Sequence record: OQ834936
Source: Shigella phage Henu12
Length of the DNA: 64,000 bases
Reading direction: 5' to 3' (one strand)
Below the pieces are notes generated by a model. It made no database searches, was not told the DNA's origin, and saw only the letters and a program-made list of their open reading frames with translations. This document shows, one piece after another, positions 7,168-12,923 of this stretch. The first letter of the stretch is position 1, and every line of letters begins with the position of its first letter. The position numbers and the translations under genes were made by a program.

Positions 7168-9540
7168 TTAATCCCAGCATACAGTATCTTCTGGAATGCT
7201 CTTAGTGTCAAAACCTAAAAACTTACCAACTTCGACGGGTGATACTTTATTCCAATCCAGATTAGAAAGCAAGAAGTTTTCTTTACGGCGTTTCTCAAAG
7301 TAATCTTTGAACTTACTTTCAAGACGCTTCTTAGCGTTATCCAGAACCTTTCTTGGCTTACAAGAGCCTCTCATATTCCTGCGAATGGTATCAAGAGTGC
7401 TGGTAATATCTTTGTAAGCAACTGGTGCAGCAGTGTATGCCAAGCGTCCAAACATTGCTTCTATAGCCTCTTCATTCCCCTCTAAGAAAATAGTCTTCTT
7501 AAAGTCTTTACTGTAAATGTGGCCTCTGGACTTACGCTTATCAGCAAACATAAAGTTTCGAGAAATCACATTACAATCAGTAATATCATGATTATTAGTC
7601 ATATATTGGTGAGTCAAGAAACGATGATACTCAATCCAATGTGTAGCATCAATGAAATCTTTCATCACTTGTTCATTGACTTCTGTCCAGTCTTCAGGAA
7701 TCTTTTTCCAGTTGGCTTTACGGAAGACATAAACTGACTGTCCAGTTAACTCTGTCATCAACGTTGCAGCACGTTCTGGTGAACATGAGAAGATTCCACC
7801 AATCACTTCATCACTCTGTGCTTTGATATACAGTTGTGGTTCTTCAATCTCATCAAAGTTCTCTTTAACCTCTGTATAACGAATCATGTAAGTATTTGGA
7901 CATATAAATGCTTTATACAGTTTTACAACACCACGTACAATAGTACGTTTTTCATAGTGGTGCTCTTTAGATGACATTGTATGCACACTTAACAGACTCT
8001 TGTCAAGCATATGCAAAGCTACAAACTCATCAAATTGCTGCTGACTGCTGAACAAGAAAGCAATACCATTGTAGCGACGGAAGTTAGAGTCTTCCTGTTC
8101 ACGGTCACGGCAAGCTCCACGGATAATCTGGTTTTTACCAGTTGTCTTCTCAGACCCGTTCTTGTTTCGACGGTCATTAATAAGGAACAAATAGTTGCTC
8201 AACTTGTCTTTACTCATTGCACCAAAGATACTAAACATTGCTGCATCTTGTGAATAAGTTGCTGAAGTTGCTCGAATACGGTTCTCCAGACTGCTGTACT
8301 TGTAGTATGCTACAGGTTCATACAGATTACCAATATTAGGAACTGGATTACCATCTTTGTCAAGCCTCAAGTTACCTGCATCATCTTTCAAGAATGACGG
8401 AGAACCATCTGCTTCAGTTAACTGACCACGACGGATACCTAACAGTTTTTGTTCAAGCTTTTTCAAGTTCTGGCCTTGCCATTCCAGAGAATCTTGGACG
8501 TGAATAAAGATTTCACGAGCCTCCTTCCTCATGGTATCATAGGCTTGAGCAGCATCAATCAGAGTTGGCTTGTTAGCAATCTCTTTTACCACATCTTCTA
8601 CGATTGTCTTAGTGATTTTCTTCACAGCTTCAACAATCTTGGTCTTAGTGGTCTCATTCATCTGCAATGCTTCACGAGATGCAGCAATAGCCACTGAACC
8701 AATTGGCATGTAGATGTTAACAAGGTCTACAGCACTACGGAAGAACTGAGGCAGAATGTTTGTAAACTCTGAGCCAAGCAACTCACCCATTTCAACCGGA
8801 TAAGCAATGTTACCCATGATTACATTGAAATGGACGCTGTTACTATTTGAGCGCCAGTTCTCTTTGTACTTCATTGCATCATAGACACCATCTTCACGAG
8901 AAATGGAAGTCATTGCTTCAAGAATGTCATAGTACTCAACATTACACTCTGGCTTAACTTTAAAGTACGAGTATACATTGCTCGCTTCTTCATGAAACTT
9001 GTTGATACGGTTATCGGATACCGCTACTCGAACAGCTAAACCATTTGGCTCTGTAGTTGGGTTAGTAGTCAACTTAGTTACTTGAGGGATACCATTCTCA
9101 AGGTAAACTGAGTATTTGTTAACTACACCATCAACATAGCTTGATACAGTGAATGACTGAGCAATTGCAAATGGGGACTTTGAACCGATACCCATAGCAC
9201 CAATGTAGTCGTTTGAATCGTTCTTTGTAGATTCTCCATAGGTCATGTAAAGTTTCATAACTTTATCATGAGTCAGTCCTGTACCAAAGTCACGAACTTC
9301 AAAGAATGGCTCGAAACGAGTTGGTAAGTGAACCAAGAAAGGTTTATCAACGTTACCAGAATCAATGTGAGCATCTACTGCGTTACATGACAATTCACGA
9401 ATTACAGCACGTTCTTTATATGTGTAAACACCTGAGCTTAGAAGACTGAACATTTCAGGTGTCATCTTAATCTGAGCCTGAGAGGTTTCCAGTGTACTTG
9501 AGCTTTTAATTACCGTTGCGTGGTCATTTACCATGCGCAT
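7168..9540 (-). CDS. rIIA: rIIA-like protein (GHKL ATPase-like N-terminus)
   Basis: N-terminus PEMFSLLSS...AVIRELSCNAVDAH...RDFGTGL...IGAMGIGSKSPF matches the T4 rIIA pattern as I recall it. Confidence 0.85.
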   Translation of the reverse strand: MRMVNDHATVIKSSSTLETSQAQIKMTPEMFSLLSSGVYTYKERAVIRELSCNAVDAHIDSGNVDKPFLVHLPTRFEPFFEVRDFGTGLTHDKVMKLYMTYGESTKNDSNDYIGAMGIGSKSPFAIAQSFTVSSYVDGVVNKYSVYLENGIPQVTKLTTNPTTEPNGLAVRVAVSDNRINKFHEEASNVYSYFKVKPECNVEYYDILEAMTSISREDGVYDAMKYKENWRSNSNSVHFNVIMGNIAYPVEMGELLGSEFTNILPQFFRSAVDLVNIYMPIGSVAIAASREALQMNETTKTKIVEAVKKITKTIVEDVVKEIANKPTLIDAAQAYDTMRKEAREIFIHVQDSLEWQGQNLKKLEQKLLGIRRGQLTEADGSPSFLKDDAGNLRLDKDGNPVPNIGNLYEPVAYYKYSSLENRIRATSATYSQDAAMFSIFGAMSKDKLSNYLFLINDRRNKNGSEKTTGKNQIIRGACRDREQEDSNFRRYNGIAFLFSSQQQFDEFVALHMLDKSLLSVHTMSSKEHHYEKRTIVRGVVKLYKAFICPNTYMIRYTEVKENFDEIEEPQLYIKAQSDEVIGGIFSCSPERAATLMTELTGQSVYVFRKANWKKIPEDWTEVNEQVMKDFIDATHWIEYHRFLTHQYMTNNHDITDCNVISRNFMFADKRKSRGHIYSKDFKKTIFLEGNEEAIEAMFGRLAYTAAPVAYKDITSTLDTIRRNMRGSCKPRKVLDNAKKRLESKFKDYFEKRRKENFLLSNLDWNKVSPVEVGKFLGFDTKSIPEDTVCWD

Positions 9541-9573
9541 AAGAATATCTCCTTAGTTGTCGATGTGGCAAAC

Positions 9574-9601
9574 TATATAATTTTATAGATGCCACTGTCA
9601 A
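9574..9601 (-). promoter_or_regulatory. sigma70-like promoter TTGACA-N16-TATATA for rIIA
   Basis: -35 at 9601-9596, -10 at 9579-9574, then AGGAGA RBS and the rIIA ATG at 9540. Confidence 0.55.
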
Positions 9602-9602
9602 G

Positions 9603-9782
9603 TTACTTTTTAAATTTCTTTCCAGTTCCATTACAGTAAGGGCAACAATGACCTATACCAACTACCCCAGAACCTTCACACTCATCACAAGGTTCAGTCT
9701 CTGAGAAGTACTTGCATAGTAACATTGCAATAGCAACTATACAACCGAGTGAAAGAACAATTTCTAACCAATAACCTTGCAT
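9603..9782 (-). CDS. small membrane-anchored protein with two CxxCxGxG (DnaJ-type) zinc-finger motifs (59 aa)
   Basis: Hand translation MQGYWLEIVLSLGCIVAIAMLLCKYFSETEPCDECEGSGVVGIGHCCPYCNGTGKKFKK; AGGAGA RBS 6 nt before the ATG; just under the track cutoff. Confidence 0.45.
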   Translation of the reverse strand: MQGYWLEIVLSLGCIVAIAMLLCKYFSETEPCDECEGSGVVGIGHCCPYCNGTGKKFKK

Positions 9783-10111
9783 ACCTTATCTCCTATAGTT
9801 CTGAATAGGACAAAACTTCTGTCATGAACAATACTCGAAGATACTGCAAAACTATTCTCAAGTATCTTTTTGTTTGGATTGTAAAATTCTTCTTGAAACA
9901 AATCAAGAGCTTCTTGATGGTTCTGTGGAAGACCTTTGATATAGACCTTCAAAGTAACCGTTGTATAAATCTCAGAAGCTAACTCTGATTGTGCTGCTTG
10001 AAACAGTTCATTGATAAACTTATGACCATCTTCAGGACGCTTAATGTTTTCCCAACGTTCTTCAATGATTAAATTAACATTCATCTGTTTAATTTTCATA
10101 GTAATCTCCAC
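9764..10111 (-). CDS. hypothetical protein (115 aa)
   Basis: ORF track; GGAG RBS after the upstream terminator. Confidence 0.5.
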   Translation of the reverse strand: MEITMKIKQMNVNLIIEERWENIKRPEDGHKFINELFQAAQSELASEIYTTVTLKVYIKGLPQNHQEALDLFQEEFYNPNKKILENSFAVSSSIVHDRSFVLFRTIGDKVCKVIG

Positions 10112-10113
10112 AA

Positions 10114-10140
10114 ATTAAAAAGGCTCCCGTAGGAGCCTCT
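10114..10140 (-). terminator. intrinsic terminator GGCUCC-UACG-GGAGCC plus U5
   Basis: Hairpin and U-tract downstream of the Nampt-like gene. Confidence 0.7.
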
Positions 10141-10152
10141 TATCATACTGTT

Positions 10153-11979
10153 TTAAAGTTGCTTGTCAATAGTATTTCGAACATCACGCAGGTTAACGTA
10201 ACCATAAGGTTGCGAGTTACTAAATACCAGTTTCAAAGCACTATGACAGTTGTCAATTGCACCTTCAAACTCTGCAAAGCCAAAACCATCTACAGCTACC
10301 AGCTTGTCACCATCCCACATAGGGACAACTCCACCAAAAGCAGACTTCTTAAGACCGCTGTCAGTTTTAGGGTCTTTAGCCAGCATAATTTCTTGACCAT
10401 CCATCTGTGCAAGAGTTGCTTTAACAGCAAATGCAAAGGTGTCACGAGTCAGGTACTGATAGGTGTATGAGCCTACACCAAACACTACGTTAGAACTTGC
10501 AAAACCTTTATCAGCAAGACGTGACAGAATCTCATTAGCCCTTTCCAGAGTGATAGAATCACCGTAGATTAGCCCAATGTGCTCATCCAGTACTTTGTAC
10601 CCTTTGGAGTTAACAGTGCCACCAAAGATGTTATACAGCGTGTGTATAGCTCCATCAATTTCTGCTGTTAACATACGCTTCACAGTAAACTGTCCAGTTT
10701 TCTGAGCGGTAATCAGGTTGATTGTGTCAATATAATCAAAATCTTCATTTTCAACAACCATCTCATAACCTTCAGAGATTAACCAAGCAGAGAACCCAAA
10801 ACCAATATCAGACATTTCACAATTCAAGATTGTGTCATGCAGATGGGTATTATCTGGTGCAAGACCTTTCATGTGCTTGTAGAACATTGACTTAGCAGTT
10901 TCCCATTCAACGGCTTTGTAACCTGTAACAATGTGAACAGGGTCTCCAGAGTCTGGACGAATTACCAACTTACCATCACGATTCAGAATTACATTACGTA
11001 GCTCTGGCAGAATCTGTGTAACAGTACGCCAGAAGTTGTAAGTATCTGATACGGCACTTGCAATACCAGTTGGGTAAACTTCTGTCAGAAGGCGATGGAA
11101 AGTTTCTACCTCACCACGCCAACGTTTGGCATCTAGTAATCCTTCAGACTGCATAATGTACTGTGAGTGAATATCCTCTTCTGTCAGGTCTTTCATATTC
11201 CATGAAATGTTTGCACACATCACAGAGTGTTCAGTTGCTGGTACAGAGTTGCCAATATCACTGATTGTCATAAACTGACCATAAGCACGTTTAGCAGTAT
11301 ACACAGCAGGGAAGCTGTCAGTACCTTTAAAGCTGGTCAAGTGACCTACAGCATTAAAAGCATCATCTGTGAAGCCAGACATACCACGCATTGCAAAATC
11401 ATGACACTGCCAAGGTAAATGGAAGTCATTGTCACAGGTCTTGTCAGCCCATTGTTTACAGATACGTTTGTAATGCAGTGCAATAGTTGCAATCGTACAA
11501 GCCTTCCAGATTTCAGCAGAGAAAGCATCTTCAAGGTAACCAGCTACCCAATGGAATCCCTCTACAGTGTTTTTAAAGACAATCATCGGGACACGCATAG
11601 GGACAATTGTACCTTCCTCTACAGAGTAGACTTCAACAGGTAGGTAACCCAAGTCATGAAGTTCTTCCCAATGTTGACGACCAATAGCATCTGCACCAAG
11701 GACACCATTCATGATTTCCAAGATTTCGTCAATGGCTTCTTTCTTATCACGTTCAAAGAACGTTGCATTCCAGTGGTCTACCAGATAGTCTTTTACAAAA
11801 CGCTGAATACCAAAGGCTACAACACCATCAATCTCTAACGGAGAGTTAAACCATTTATCTCCACGAGGTGTTAAGTTCAGCATAAGATACTGTGTAGCAT
11901 CTGGATACTGGTAGAAATGGCCAGATTTGTAGGCATCTGCATTAAGTGCTGCTGGTACTGCATAAAGTGATTTAGTCAT
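10153..11979 (-). CDS. nadV: nicotinamide phosphoribosyltransferase (Nampt/NadV)-like protein
   Basis: 608-aa protein with Nampt-family character (by my recognition of the translation); adjacent to the Prs-like gene. Confidence 0.8.
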   Translation of the reverse strand: MTKSLYAVPAALNADAYKSGHFYQYPDATQYLMLNLTPRGDKWFNSPLEIDGVVAFGIQRFVKDYLVDHWNATFFERDKKEAIDEILEIMNGVLGADAIGRQHWEELHDLGYLPVEVYSVEEGTIVPMRVPMIVFKNTVEGFHWVAGYLEDAFSAEIWKACTIATIALHYKRICKQWADKTCDNDFHLPWQCHDFAMRGMSGFTDDAFNAVGHLTSFKGTDSFPAVYTAKRAYGQFMTISDIGNSVPATEHSVMCANISWNMKDLTEEDIHSQYIMQSEGLLDAKRWRGEVETFHRLLTEVYPTGIASAVSDTYNFWRTVTQILPELRNVILNRDGKLVIRPDSGDPVHIVTGYKAVEWETAKSMFYKHMKGLAPDNTHLHDTILNCEMSDIGFGFSAWLISEGYEMVVENEDFDYIDTINLITAQKTGQFTVKRMLTAEIDGAIHTLYNIFGGTVNSKGYKVLDEHIGLIYGDSITLERANEILSRLADKGFASSNVVFGVGSYTYQYLTRDTFAFAVKATLAQMDGQEIMLAKDPKTDSGLKKSAFGGVVPMWDGDKLVAVDGFGFAEFEGAIDNCHSALKLVFSNSQPYGYVNLRDVRNTIDKQL

Positions 11980-11999
11980 CTTTTTATCTCTCTCAAAGT

Positions 12000-12015
12000 G
12001 GGGCTTTTCAGCCCC
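12000..12015 (-). other. conserved stem-loop GGGGCU-GAAA-AGCCCC between Prs-like and Nampt-like genes
   Basis: Perfect 6-bp stem with GNRA-type loop; same 16-mer at 7138-7153 and a variant at 45251-45266. Confidence 0.55.
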
Positions 12016-12023
12016 TAAAGTTG

Positions 12024-12923
12024 TTATTCAATATTTGCTACGGTCACTTGTGAGAAGTGGGAAAGACCACGGTCTTTTTCATCCCCTAGTGAGTTTGTAG
12101 TGTAGATATGGTCGATACCATTGTCAAGGAGATTTTCAACACCTTTAGAGAAAATCCCATGAGTGACATACAGTTCCACACGTTCTGCTCCAGCTTCACG
12201 AAGATACTTTGCAGCCTCGATAAAGGTTCGACCACCGTCACAGATATCATCCAGAATCATGACAGTCTTACCTGTCAAGTCTACATCATCAAGGATTCGC
12301 ATACCAGTGATTTCACCAGTTTTCAGGTTTCGTACCTTAGCCATTGTAATATAAGGTTTATCAACCTCTTTAGCAGCCTCTTCAGTCTTCTTAGCTGCAC
12401 CTGCATCTGGAGCCACTAAGTAATCAATGCGTGGGTCACTTGCAAAGTGGACTGCTGCCTCTTTTTGAGGGAGGTTGTAGAAGCTCTTAAACAAATTCTC
12501 TGCAACATTACTGTGAGTATCCAGAGCACATACTGCATCGAACTCCATAGCATTTACAAGATTTGCAAAGACTTTAAGTGCTGCTGCATCACCTTTAAAC
12601 ATGTGACGGTCATAGCGAGCATTTGGTAAGAATCCAAAGACAACAGTTTTCAGAGTTGCTTTCTGAGGAATCAAACGGTCAATTGCTTCTTTAGCCATAG
12701 CTAATGCAAAGAGTGTGTCTTTGTCATAACCTTGTACTGTGAAGACTACGTTTTCAATCTTACCAGCAGCATGTTCAGCAAAGTCTACTAAGTCTTCTGA
12801 GAAGTTACCACCAATCTCCCCAGAAGGGAACTGGATAATGTTGAAGGTCTCTTGATGAGAACCTTTGGAATTTGAATTAAGTAGAACTCGAATAGTAGTT
12901 TTCATAATATTTCTCTCAGTCAA
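12024..12923 (-). CDS. ribose-phosphate pyrophosphokinase (Prs)-like protein
   Basis: PRPP-binding loop VMILDDICDGGRT; 299 aa. Confidence 0.8.
   Translation of the reverse strand: MTERNIMKTTIRVLLNSNSKGSHQETFNIIQFPSGEIGGNFSEDLVDFAEHAAGKIENVVFTVQGYDKDTLFALAMAKEAIDRLIPQKATLKTVVFGFLPNARYDRHMFKGDAAALKVFANLVNAMEFDAVCALDTHSNVAENLFKSFYNLPQKEAAVHFASDPRIDYLVAPDAGAAKKTEEAAKEVDKPYITMAKVRNLKTGEITGMRILDDVDLTGKTVMILDDICDGGRTFIEAAKYLREAGAERVELYVTHGIFSKGVENLLDNGIDHIYTTNSLGDEKDRGLSHFSQVTVANIE

What the first reader, a model, noticed from the sequence alone, without database searches (positions are those of the whole stretch)
9603..9782. Unannotated 59-aa membrane-anchored protein with two CxxCxGxG zinc-finger motifs upstream of rIIA
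Seen: minus-strand ORF with AGGAGA RBS encodes an N-terminal TM helix followed by CDECEGSG and CPYCNGTG, the CxxCxGxG pattern of DnaJ-type zinc fingers. It sits just upstream of the strong rIIA promoter. Inference: a small membrane-tethered zinc-binding protein, possibly modulating a host chaperone or membrane complex.
Basis: seen in the sequence. Interest (0 to 1): 0.5.

Follow-up and report, generated by a model that had tools for sequence, protein, structure and literature searches.

The report
Small membrane-anchored zinc-knuckle phage protein
This is a real, conserved 59-residue early phage gene for a membrane-anchored protein with one DnaJ/anti-TRAP-type zinc knuckle; it was missed in this genome's annotation but is already catalogued in relatives as a hypothetical membrane protein, is dispensable on laboratory hosts, and has no known function.

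Summary
Window 9603-9782(-) encodes a 59-aa protein with an AGGAGA RBS, an N-terminal TM helix and two CxxCxGxG motifs. The window is Shigella phage Henu11 (Mooglevirus, Ounavirinae). The ORF is unannotated there, but relatives annotate it (FelixO1 ORF131 'hypothetical membrane protein'; PHROG 3931, unknown function). It is under purifying selection (dN/dS 0.05-0.46). It lies directly upstream of rIIA in every Ounavirinae lineage checked, about 295 records. A homologue in RB49-like T4-type phages sits after nrdH instead. Four Cys and three Gly are invariant. A family profile matches the DnaJ cysteine-rich domain (E 2e-7), and the model superposes on anti-TRAP (0.9 A over 29 residues). That implies one Zn(Cys)4 knuckle about 8 residues from the membrane. 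Charge distribution predicts N-out/C-in. There is no J domain, so it is not a DnaJ. The SUSP1 orthologue is 'Not Fit' in a knockdown screen, and the Bas63 orthologue lies in a non-essential segment between validated counter-defence genes. My best reading (inferred) is an early, conditionally useful membrane-tethered protein-binding knuckle that acts on a membrane-proximal host or phage target. The host-chaperone idea has no support. It is an ordinary new member of a known, uncharacterised family; interest is modest.

The parts
9603..9782 (-). CDS of the 59-aa membrane-anchored zinc-knuckle protein (stop codon included); orthologue of FelixO1 ORF131 / SUSP1 agp080 / Bas63 g83; PHROG 3931
9789..9794 (-). 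Shine-Dalgarno AGGAGA, 6 nt upstream of the ATG; lies inside the 3' end of gp33
   Evidence: an RBS is annotated at the same place in Mijalis and Mordin
9714..9767 (-). Codons 6-23: the single transmembrane helix (LEIVLSLGCIVAIAMLLC); predicted N-out/C-in
   Evidence: hydropathy and charge counts; AF2 helix 4-28
9666..9689 (-). First CxxCxGxG motif (CDECEGSG, residues 32-39)
   Evidence: C32, C35 and G37 invariant in 13 homologues
9621..9644 (-). Second CxxCxGxG motif (CPYCNGTG, residues 47-54), preceded by a non-invariant extra Cys46
   Evidence: C47, C50, G52 and G54 invariant; C46 is Pro in P0002
9572..9601 (-). Sigma-70-like promoter TTGACA-18-TATAGT for rIIA, starting 2 nt after the stop codon; present in Mooglevirus and Suspvirus, absent in Felixounavirus and P778
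9764..10099 (-). Upstream gene gp33 (111 aa, PHROG 4262, unknown function); its last 19 nt overlap the start of the small ORF, an arrangement typical of translational coupling
10118..10169 (-). Intrinsic terminator hairpin of NAMPT (10141..10118) with an overlapping sigma-70-like promoter (10169..10142, TTGACA-16-TATGAT); likely start of the gp33 / small ORF (/ rIIA) transcription unit
7168..9540 (-). rIIA (790 aa, GHKL-type ATPase domain), the invariant downstream neighbour throughout Ounavirinae

Best explanation
This is a genuine early accessory gene of FelixO1-like (Ounavirinae) phages. It encodes a bitopic inner-membrane protein. The first 5-7 residues (conserved MQxYWxE) face the periplasm, one TM helix spans the membrane, and a conserved Lys marks the cytoplasmic boundary. 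About 8 residues further on, a 23-24-residue hairpin made of two CxxCxGxG motifs folds around a single Zn(Cys)4 centre, as in Bacillus anti-TRAP or half of the DnaJ cysteine-rich domain. The protein has no J domain or catalytic domain. The knuckle therefore most likely works as a protein-binding surface held flush against the cytoplasmic face of the membrane. There it could bind, and so inhibit, hold or recruit, a membrane-proximal partner. The gene is expressed with the early host-takeover and counter-defence genes (Prs/NAMPT upstream, rIIA/rIIB downstream). It is dispensable on laboratory E. coli, so its benefit is conditional, most plausibly counter-defence or host takeover at the membrane. 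Shown here: the gene is real and under purifying selection, it has a TM segment, the 4 Cys/3 Gly pattern is invariant, it resembles DnaJ-CR and anti-TRAP, its synteny is conserved, and its orthologues are non-essential. Inferred: zinc binding, N-out/C-in topology and early expression. Speculative: the partner. Candidates include a membrane-bound host protease such as FtsH (by analogy with plant FIP), a membrane-associated defence effector, or the RII proteins.
For: Coding and selection: pairwise dN/dS is 0.05-0.11 within genera at dS 0.3-0.5, and 0.09-0.58 between genera. Conservation: 256 phage records by tblastn, plus 36 Kolesnikvirus and 3 Arno18/P778-type records, against 301 records with a near-full-length rIIA match. 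Zinc knuckle: C32, C35, G37, C47, C50, G52 and G54 are invariant across 13 homologues that share only 31-85% identity with the Henu11 protein. The profile matches PDB DnaJ CR 1exk at E 2.2e-7, DNAJA3 at 3e-5 and anti-TRAP at 0.04. Foldseek's top hits are 1exk, anti-TRAP (rmsd 0.9 A over 29 residues, 34% id) and BSD2. The 6-7-residue spacer between motifs equals that of anti-TRAP, whose alignment is shown. Topology: there is no K/R N-terminal of the best 17-residue hydrophobic window in any of 15 family members (Arno18's K4 falls inside that window), and 2-8 K/R in the C-terminal part. Expression context: RBS, 19-nt overlap with gp33, promoter/terminator layout, and a 17-28-nt spacer to rIIA in the Felix and P778 lineages. 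Dispensability and context: SUSP1 agp080 is 'Not Fit' (PMC11879866 suppl. 16). The Bas63 46-66 kb segment containing g83 is non-essential on 4 hosts, while its neighbours g79/g80 and g84/g85 are validated counter-defence genes (10.1101/2024.10.10.617714). Precedent for this architecture binding a membrane protease: Arabidopsis FIP has a TM plus a two-CXXCXGXG C4 finger on the stromal side and binds FtsH5 (PMC5915565).
Against: There is no direct evidence for zinc binding, topology, expression or any partner. The AF2 model has only moderate confidence (pLDDT 73, 9-sequence alignment), and the Foldseek E-values are non-significant because the domain is tiny. Bacterial proteins with signal peptides and many CxxCxGxG repeats exist (P0037, P0109), so the motif alone does not prove a cytoplasmic location. 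In Henu11 the stretch between the TM and the first Cys is net acidic, and Arno18 has a Lys at position 4. Bas63 g83 was not named as a counter to any of the 12 defence systems scored. The counter-defence idea therefore rests on gene neighbourhood only.
Confidence: 0.45

Rival explanations
1. It is a dedicated third component of the rII module: a membrane anchor or adaptor that recruits the TM-less RIIA/RIIB proteins to the inner membrane so they can block membrane-depolarising defences (RexAB, QatABCD).
For: It lies immediately upstream of rIIA in all six Ounavirinae lineages examined (Felixouna-, Moogle-, Susp- and Kolesnikvirus, Arno18, P778). This holds even though rIIA identity falls to 33% and the genes between NAMPT and the small ORF come and go. 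The spacer to rIIA is only 17-28 nt in the P778 and Felix lineages, implying co-transcription. SUSP1 knockdown fitness (1.05) is higher than its upstream neighbours and in the direction of rIIA (1.83), although it was called 'Not Fit' and could be a polar effect.
Against: The RB49-type homologue is not next to rIIA; it overlaps the end of nrdH. T4, Vequintavirus, Kuttervirus and Litunavirus have rIIA/B but unrelated genes upstream: rIIA.1, SleB hydrolase, a soluble 117-aa protein and an HNH protein. In Bas63 only g84 and g85 were reported as QatABCD counters and as co-essential, not g83. Conserved adjacency within one subfamily can be simple vertical inheritance.
Confidence: 0.15
2. The topology is the opposite (N-in/C-out). 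The Cys-rich domain would then be periplasmic and disulfide-bonded or redox-active, acting for example in superinfection exclusion, envelope protection or thiol-disulfide exchange.
For: CxxC motifs are also redox motifs. Exported bacterial proteins with CxxCxGxG repeats behind signal peptides or lipoboxes exist (P0035, P0037, P0109). The Krischvirus homologue is translationally coupled to the redoxin NrdH (11-nt overlap). The juxtamembrane C-flank is net acidic in Henu11, and Arno18 has K4.
Against: There is no K/R N-terminal of the hydrophobic window in any of the 15 family members (Arno18's K4 lies inside that window), and Asp/Glu is frequent there. This is the reverse of a Sec signal or type II anchor. 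A basic residue (K24, KK, KY-R) follows the TM in most members, and the C-terminus is usually basic. The closest structural relatives (DnaJ CR, anti-TRAP, BSD2) are zinc proteins of reducing compartments.
Confidence: 0.12
3. One reading: it mimics the DnaJ zinc-finger domain to modulate the host DnaK/DnaJ chaperone system.
For: There is sequence and fold similarity to the DnaJ cysteine-rich domain. Some Erwinia phage records even label the orthologue 'dnaJ: chaperone protein'.
Against: Only two of the four motifs are present, so one of the two zinc centres. No J domain, G/F region or C-terminal substrate domain is detected. All DnaJ family models score far below their cut-offs (18.4 vs 32.7 bits in Pfam; 12-17 vs 338-556 bits in NCBIfam). 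A membrane tether 8 residues long is not expected for a regulator of a soluble chaperone. The same two-motif knuckle occurs in many unrelated small phage proteins, so it is a generic module.
Confidence: 0.06
4. The peptide itself is unimportant. The ORF would persist as a translated spacer or upstream ORF that sets rIIA expression, or it is a gene-call artefact.
For: It is very short, was missed by the Henu11 annotators, sits directly upstream of rIIA, and is non-essential. A few Felix-like genomes carry frameshifted versions (P0009, P0011-P0013).
Against: dN/dS is well below 1 with many synonymous changes. The Cys and Gly positions are invariant across lineages whose DNA no longer aligns. A homologue occurs in a different genomic context in Krischvirus. 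In Mooglevirus, rIIA has its own promoter and RBS.
Confidence: 0.03

Closest known systems
PHROG 3931 / FelixO1 ORF131 (Felix01p243), SUSP1 AVU07_agp080, Bas63 bas63_0083
   Same: Full-length homologues (HMM E 4e-33 over 59/59 positions) with the same position upstream of rIIA and the same TM plus two-motif architecture.
   Different: Nothing substantive. The Henu11 record simply lacks the CDS call. The family has no assigned function.
Bacillus anti-TRAP (RtpA/YczA; PDB 2bx9, 3ld0, 3lcz)
   Same: A protein of about 53 aa whose single Zn(Cys)4 site is built from two adjacent CxxC-type knuckles 6 residues apart. The model superposes at 0.9-1.2 A over 29 residues with 34% identity. It acts purely by binding another protein (TRAP).
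   Different: Anti-TRAP is soluble, trimerises through a C-terminal helix, and is restricted to Bacilli. The phage protein has an N-terminal TM helix instead and scores below both anti-TRAP family cut-offs.
DnaJ/Hsp40 cysteine-rich (zinc-finger) domain, Pfam PF00684
   Same: The CxxCxGxG signature. The profile-to-PDB match to E. coli DnaJ CR has E 2.2e-7, aligning to the motif 3-4 half.
   Different: It has half the domain (2 of 4 motifs, one zinc centre rather than two), no J domain, no G/F region and no C-terminal domains, and it is membrane-anchored. It is not a DnaJ.
Arabidopsis FIP (At5g02160) and other plastid J-less DnaJ-like zinc-finger proteins (BSD2, LQY1, OR, PSA2)
   Same: FIP has the same architecture: a short N-terminal segment on the lumenal (periplasm-equivalent) side, one TM, and a C4 finger with exactly two CXXCXGXG repeats on the stromal (cytoplasm-equivalent) side. 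It binds the membrane protease FtsH5 (PMC5915565). BSD2 appears among the fold hits.
   Different: These are eukaryotic, plastid-targeted proteins with a transit peptide, restricted to land plants. Homology to the phage family was not tested here and is probably only at the level of the shared knuckle. The other plant proteins carry four repeats.
RB49p046 (Krischvirus, T4-like phages)
   Same: 52 aa, with a TM plus CxxCxGxG-x5-CCxxCxGxGK. There are reciprocal tblastn hits to FelixO1-type proteins (42% identity over residues 3-48) and hhalign probability is 97%.
   Different: It is located after nrdH (11-nt overlap), not next to rIIA, and lacks the MQxYWxE N-terminus.

Membership tests
PHROG 3931 (phage protein family, unknown function) | Full-length match to the family HMM | tested here: met
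   E 4.1e-33, 114 bits, residues 1-59 on profile 1-59/59. SUSP1 agp080 was assigned phrog_3931 by Adler et al..
PHROG 3931 / Ounavirinae ORF131 orthologues | Positional orthology: immediately upstream of rIIA and downstream of NAMPT | tested here: met
   Same order in Henu11, KPS64, Mijalis, Mordin, SUSP1, SUSP2, FelixO1, allfine, SWJM-02, Bas63, phiEa21-4, Arno18 and P778.
DnaJ central cysteine-rich domain (Pfam PF00684 DnaJ_CXXCXGXG) | Score at or above the Pfam gathering threshold (32.7 bits); four CxxCxGxG repeats forming two zinc centres | tested here: not met
   18.4 bits, E 0.0027, covering only profile positions 31-65/65. Only two repeats are present.
DnaJ/Hsp40 co-chaperone | J domain with HPD motif | tested here: not met
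   No J-domain hit in Pfam at E<=1. NCBIfam DnaJ models score 12-17 bits against cut-offs of 338-556. The 59-aa sequence has no room for a J domain.
Anti-TRAP (Pfam PF15777; NCBIfam NF058604 RtpA) | Family HMM score above the cut-off | tested here: not met
   PF15777 11.8 bits vs 32; NF058604 17.0 bits vs 65. The structural resemblance covers the knuckle only.
Anti-TRAP-like single Zn(Cys)4 knuckle (structural class) | Two CxxC knuckles 6-7 residues apart, four invariant Cys, fold superposable on the anti-TRAP zinc domain | tested here: met
   Spacer is 6-7 residues in all 15 members. The four Cys are invariant. Rmsd is 0.9-1.2 A over 29 residues to 3ld0, 2bx9 and 3lcz. Actual zinc binding cannot be tested with these tools.
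Zinc-binding protein | Stoichiometric zinc bound by the four Cys | not testable with these tools
   Requires metal analysis of purified protein.
Plant FIP-type membrane-anchored C4 zinc-finger proteins | Sequence homology to At5g02160; interaction with FtsH | not tested
   The architecture is the same according to PMC5915565.
rII module component | Co-occurrence with rIIA/B in all rII-bearing phages, and a shared knockout phenotype | tested here: not met
   Absent upstream of rIIA in T4, Vequintavirus, Kuttervirus and Litunavirus. Unlinked from rIIA in RB49. Bas63 g83 is not reported among QatABCD counters.
Known anti-phage defence or RNA families | Match to PADLOC or Rfam models | tested here: not met
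   No PADLOC hit for the ORF. No Rfam hit inside 9603-9782.

The most novel reading that the evidence does not exclude
The TM-tethered single-zinc knuckle could be a new type of phage counter-defence or host-takeover effector. It would dock onto the cytoplasmic juxtamembrane face of a host inner-membrane machine, such as the FtsH protease (as plant FIP does) or a membrane-embedded abortive-infection effector, and neutralise it. Alternatively it could be the missing membrane anchor of the RIIA/RIIB system in FelixO1-like phages.
Probability: 0.2. Interest if true: 0.6.

Novelty: new member of a known kind. Interest (0 to 1): 0.3.

Why it matters
The practical outcome is an annotation fix: Henu11 lacks a CDS that about 350 related phage genomes carry. 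Biologically, the gene is near-universal in FelixO1-like phages, which are widely used for Salmonella and E. coli typing and biocontrol. It sits between two experimentally validated counter-defence modules, NAD+ reconstitution and rII. That position makes it a reasonable, cheap candidate for targeted knockout on defence-rich natural hosts. If a partner were found, it would give a function to a very common small phage module, the two-motif DnaJ/anti-TRAP-type knuckle. As it stands, it is one more conserved hypothetical protein.

Tried and rejected
1. T4 rIIA.1 as a positional analogue: it is a soluble acidic protein with no Cys and is unrelated.
2. General 'small TM protein upstream of rIIA' rule: rejected after checking Vequintavirus ime, Kuttervirus pertopsoe and Litunavirus P121.
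3. gp33 as an obligate partner: gp33 is absent in Arno18 and P778, and phiEa21-4 gp116 shows no significant similarity to it.
4. Word-indexed and exhaustive protein searches. Full-length relatives are confined to a few clusters (P0001, P0005, P0006, P0014; weak P0111 and P0116). The other approximately 430 hits are multi-repeat CxxCxGxG proteins.
5. Context of metagenomic look-alike P0111: no Pfam or PHROG hits in any neighbour, so uninformative.
6. The search for related loci with the diverse alignment failed because there was no conserved 7-10-column stretch.
They hold many soluble two-motif mini-proteins but no additional TM-anchored ones.
8. Rfam on 9300-10300 gave only sub-threshold hits on the NAMPT terminator hairpin.
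9. PADLOC gave nothing for the ORF and an insignificant SduA hit for gp33. The PDB sequence search for gp33 gave nothing.
10. Literature searches for RB49p046, Felix01p243, phrog_3931 and Felixounavirus transcriptomics found no paper on this gene and no expression data.
11. HIDEN-SEQ does not cover a Felix-like phage. The PhageMaP supplementary tables are not held, so the per-gene score of Bas63 g83 could not be read.

Full report
**1. Is it there?**

Yes. On the minus strand an ATG at 9782 opens a 59-codon frame ending in TAA at 9605-9603. The product is MQGYWLEIVLSLGCIVAIAMLLCKYFSETEPCDECEGSGVVGIGHCCPYCNGTGKKFKK. AGGAGA lies 6 nt upstream at 9794-9789.

Residues 6-22 form the best hydrophobic window, with mean Kyte-Doolittle 2.6. 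AlphaFold2 predicts one helix over residues 4-28, followed by a small beta-hairpin-like knuckle (pLDDT 73). The two motifs CDECEGSG and CPYCNGTG are 7 residues apart. The whole 64-kb window contains only three CxxCxGxG matches in six frames, two of them in this ORF, while shuffled windows give a mean of 0.28.

A TTGACA-18-TATAGT promoter-like site at 9601..9572 follows the stop codon and precedes rIIA at 7168..9540.

**2. Where is it from, and is it really unannotated?**

The window is 100% identical to Shigella phage Henu11 (OM953433; Mooglevirus, Ounavirinae).

Relatives do annotate the same ORF:
- KPS64 gp2, 'membrane protein'
- Mijalis, 'putative cytoplasmic membrane protein'
- FelixO1 ORF131/Felix01p243, 'hypothetical membrane protein'
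- SUSP1 AVU07_agp080
- Bas63 bas63_0083, 'putative membrane protein'

It matches PHROG 3931 (unknown function) end to end at E 4e-33. The finding is therefore an annotation gap, not a new gene.

**3. Is it a real gene?**

tblastn finds it in 256 phage records, 252 of them at 80% coverage or more. Nei-Gojobori estimates give dN/dS of 0.05-0.11 for within-genus pairs at dS 0.3-0.5, and 0.09-0.58 between genera. This is clear purifying selection on the peptide.

Positional orthologues that tblastn with the Henu11 protein cannot reach have the same architecture:
- Erwinia phage phiEa21-4 gp117, where rIIA is only 33% identical, plus 35 other Kolesnikvirus-type records
- Pectobacterium phage Arno18 orf147 and Yersinia phage P778 ORF109

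Together that is about 295 records, against 301 with a near-full-length rIIA match. The gene is therefore essentially universal in the subfamily.

A homologue also exists in about 59 RB49-like T4-type phages (Krischvirus). RB49p046 gives reciprocal tblastn hits to FelixO1-type proteins at 42% identity over residues 3-48, and hhalign probability is 97%.

An exhaustive HMM search of 1.84 billion representatives found full-length relatives only in a handful of clusters. All other hits were multi-repeat CxxCxGxG proteins.

**4. Anatomy**

Thirteen homologues that share only 31-85% identity with the Henu11 protein were aligned. The invariant positions after Met1 are C32, C35, G37, C47, C50, G52 and G54. 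G39 and P48 are nearly invariant. The extra Cys46 is Pro in one member, and the TM cysteines vary. Four Cys are therefore the conserved ligand set, which implies one tetrahedral metal site.

Similarity searches all point to the same fold:
- A family profile hits the NMR structure of the E. coli DnaJ cysteine-rich domain at E 2.2e-7, human DNAJA3 at 3e-5 and anti-TRAP at 0.04.
- Pfam DnaJ_CXXCXGXG matches only its second half and stays below the gathering score, 18.4 vs 32.7 bits.
- Foldseek ranks DnaJ CR, anti-TRAP (rmsd 0.9 A over 29 residues, 34% identity) and BSD2 first. The E-values are non-significant, as expected for a domain of about 30 residues.
- BFVD returns the same phage family plus many uncharacterised small viral 'DnaJ-like' or 'anti-TRAP domain' proteins.

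With only two motifs and a 6-7-residue spacer, which is the same spacing as in anti-TRAP, the anti-TRAP arrangement of one Zn shared by two adjacent knuckles is the natural reading. Zinc itself is inferred.

**5. Topology**

No K/R lies N-terminal of the best 17-residue hydrophobic window in any of the 15 family members, and Asp/Glu is frequent there. The C-terminal part carries 2-8 K/R. A basic residue usually follows the TM directly: K24 in the Felix, Moogle and Susp lineages, KK in RB49, and K-Y-R in phiEa21-4.

By the positive-inside rule (established knowledge) this predicts N-out/C-in. That orientation places the knuckle in the reducing cytoplasm, about 8 residues from the bilayer.

There are caveats. 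The juxtamembrane stretch is net acidic in Henu11, and Arno18 has Lys4, which falls inside the window the script chose. Exported bacterial CxxCxGxG-repeat proteins also exist. I put about 75% on C-in.

**6. Transcription context**

NAMPT ends at 10153 and is followed by a strong hairpin-plus-T-run terminator at 10141..10118. A TTGACA-16-TATGAT promoter-like site at 10169..10142 overlaps it, so a start site would fall inside the hairpin. This layout fits a separate unit of gp33, the small ORF and, by read-through, rIIA.

The small ORF starts 19 nt before the gp33 stop. The rIIA promoter after the ORF is conserved in Mooglevirus and Suspvirus. It is absent in Felixounavirus (28-nt spacer) and P778 (17-nt spacer), where the ORF and rIIA must share a transcript.

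No Rfam family and no conserved antisense ORF lies in the interval.

**7. What the neighbourhood and the literature say**

Upstream lie ribose-phosphate pyrophosphokinase and NAMPT. Downstream lie rIIA and rIIB.

In the Felixounavirus Bas63, the orthologous g79/g80 counter Sir2-HerA, retron Ec86 and hhe. The orthologous g84/g85 (rIIA/B) counter QatABCD, with EOP losses of 10^4-10^5. The 46-66 kb segment that contains g83 is uniformly non-essential on four E. coli hosts (10.1101/2024.10.10.617714). g83 is not named among the hits. The per-gene table is not held, so this is absence of a report, not a measured null.

In SUSP1, rII knockdown sensitises the phage to RexAB. The genome-wide CRISPRi-ART screen scores agp080 as 'Not Fit' (7 guides, fitness 1.05), rIIA as 'Semi-Fit' and rIIB as 'Not Fit' (PMC11879866).

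The gene is therefore a dispensable accessory gene embedded in a counter-defence cluster. No paper in the library mentions RB49p046, Felix01p243 or phrog_3931.

**8. Is it part of the rII system?**

In favour: adjacency to rIIA is invariant across Ounavirinae, while the genes between NAMPT and the ORF vary. There are 0 such genes in Arno18 and P778, 1 in Henu11 and FelixO1, and 2 in Mijalis, SUSP1, Bas63 and phiEa21-4. In addition, phiEa21-4 gp116 is not detectably similar to gp33.

Against:
- The Krischvirus homologue sits after nrdH, overlapping it by 11 nt. The metagenomic look-alike P0116 has the same arrangement.
- T4, Vequintavirus, Kuttervirus and Litunavirus run rII modules with unrelated upstream genes.
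- Only g84 and g85 were reported as co-essential against QatABCD.

I rate this rival at about 0.15.

**9. Most likely mechanism**

The domain has no catalytic signature. Its characterised relatives work by binding proteins. According to the papers read here, anti-TRAP binds TRAP (abstracts), and the zinc finger of DnaJ proteins interacts with the substrate (PMC5915565). From prior knowledge, not tested or read here, BSD2 binds the Rubisco large subunit. The plant protein FIP has the same layout: lumenal N-terminus, one TM, and a two-repeat C4 finger on the stromal side. It binds the membrane protease FtsH5 (PMC5915565).

I therefore commit to the following model. The protein is an early-made, N-out/C-in inner-membrane protein whose single Zn(Cys)4 knuckle serves as a membrane-proximal protein-binding module. 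It gives a conditional advantage, through counter-defence or host takeover.

The partner is unknown. FtsH, a membrane-associated defence effector and RIIA/B are all candidates. Confidence in the whole statement is 0.45. The gene and architecture parts are near-certain, topology and zinc are about 0.75, and the functional class is about 0.4.

**10. Comparison with known families and novelty**

It is a member of PHROG 3931. It is not a DnaJ, because it has no J domain, only half a CR domain, and scores below every DnaJ cut-off. It is not an anti-TRAP family member either, again by cut-offs. It does share the anti-TRAP-type single knuckle. Labels such as 'dnaJ: chaperone protein' in some Erwinia phage records are over-annotations.

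Small soluble proteins with the same two-motif knuckle are common in viral contigs. The TM-anchored form was seen only in Ounavirinae and Krischvirus, plus two weak metagenomic look-alikes (P0111, P0116).

The verdict is a new member of a known, uncharacterised kind. Interest is modest at 0.3. It would rise to about 0.6 if a defined membrane target or counter-defence role were shown, which I rate at about 0.2.

Noticed in passing
window 10118-10169 (-): The intrinsic terminator after NAMPT (10141..10118) is overlapped by a near-consensus sigma-70-like promoter (TTGACA-16-TATGAT, 10169..10142). The promoter's start site would fall inside the hairpin. Upstream transcripts would terminate here, while transcripts initiated here would lack the 5' arm and read on into gp33 and the small ORF.
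   Followed up: partly
window 10153-12923 (-): NAMPT (608 aa) and ribose-phosphate pyrophosphokinase (299 aa) lie just upstream. Their Bas63 orthologues g80/g79 are experimentally validated counters of NAD+-depleting defences (Sir2-HerA, retron Ec86, hhe), according to 10.1101/2024.10.10.617714. Together with rIIA/rIIB, the region looks like a counter-defence gene cluster.
   Followed up: partly
window ~10100-10153, compared with L003, L008, L009, L015, L021: The gene content between NAMPT and gp33 varies among close relatives. Mijalis, Mordin, SUSP1 and contig L015 carry an extra 71-73-aa ORF (DUF7279 / phrog_2375). SWJM-02 and Bas63 carry a 114-aa ORF. Henu11 has none, which explains the ~212-bp gap that splits several megablast hits into two pieces.
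   Followed up: partly
window 9572-9601 vs L007:1640-1726 and L018:2553-2628: The rIIA promoter after the small ORF is a lineage-specific insertion of about 35 nt (Mooglevirus and Suspvirus). Felixounavirus and phage P778 have spacers of only 28 and 17 nt with an RBS and no promoter.
   Followed up: yes
proteins P0009, P0011, P0012, P0013 (63 aa) and P0010 (41 aa): A few singleton FelixO1-like entries (e.g. phage phiWec177, NJ12) carry versions frameshifted at different positions, or N-terminally truncated. These versions lose the zinc knuckle or the TM. They are either sequencing errors or sporadic pseudogenisation, which would be consistent with dispensability.
   Followed up: partly
L019:9884-10042 (RB49) and L014:520-699: In RB49-like phages the homologue overlaps the 3' end of the glutaredoxin-like nrdH gene by 11 nt. 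A metagenomic look-alike (P0116) has the same arrangement next to a thioredoxin-domain gene. This recurrent coupling of a Cys-rich mini-protein to a redoxin is unexplained.
   Followed up: partly
phage records OQ818707, OQ818703, OQ818706, OQ818709, PP278848, PP854833: The 54-aa orthologue is annotated as 'dnaJ: chaperone protein' or 'chaperone protein' in several Erwinia phage genomes. This is an over-annotation based on the half-domain motif match.
   Followed up: yes
GU169904.1 Staphylococcus phage SA1, 120084-120257; two 'Campylobacter' phage records: Records labelled as Staphylococcus or Campylobacter phages contain this FelixO1-type locus. This suggests chimeric assemblies or mislabelled entries in the public collection.
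   Followed up: no
window 10099-10111 (-): The mechanical ORF list starts gp33 at GTG 10111 (115 aa). The deposited CDS, and a GGAG Shine-Dalgarno, favour ATG 10099 (111 aa).
   Followed up: partly
loci L022-L141 (viral contigs): Small soluble proteins (31-100 aa) that consist of little more than one CxxCxGxG-x6-CxxCxGxG knuckle are frequent in uncultivated viral genomes. This module is common but functionally uncharacterised.
   Followed up: partly
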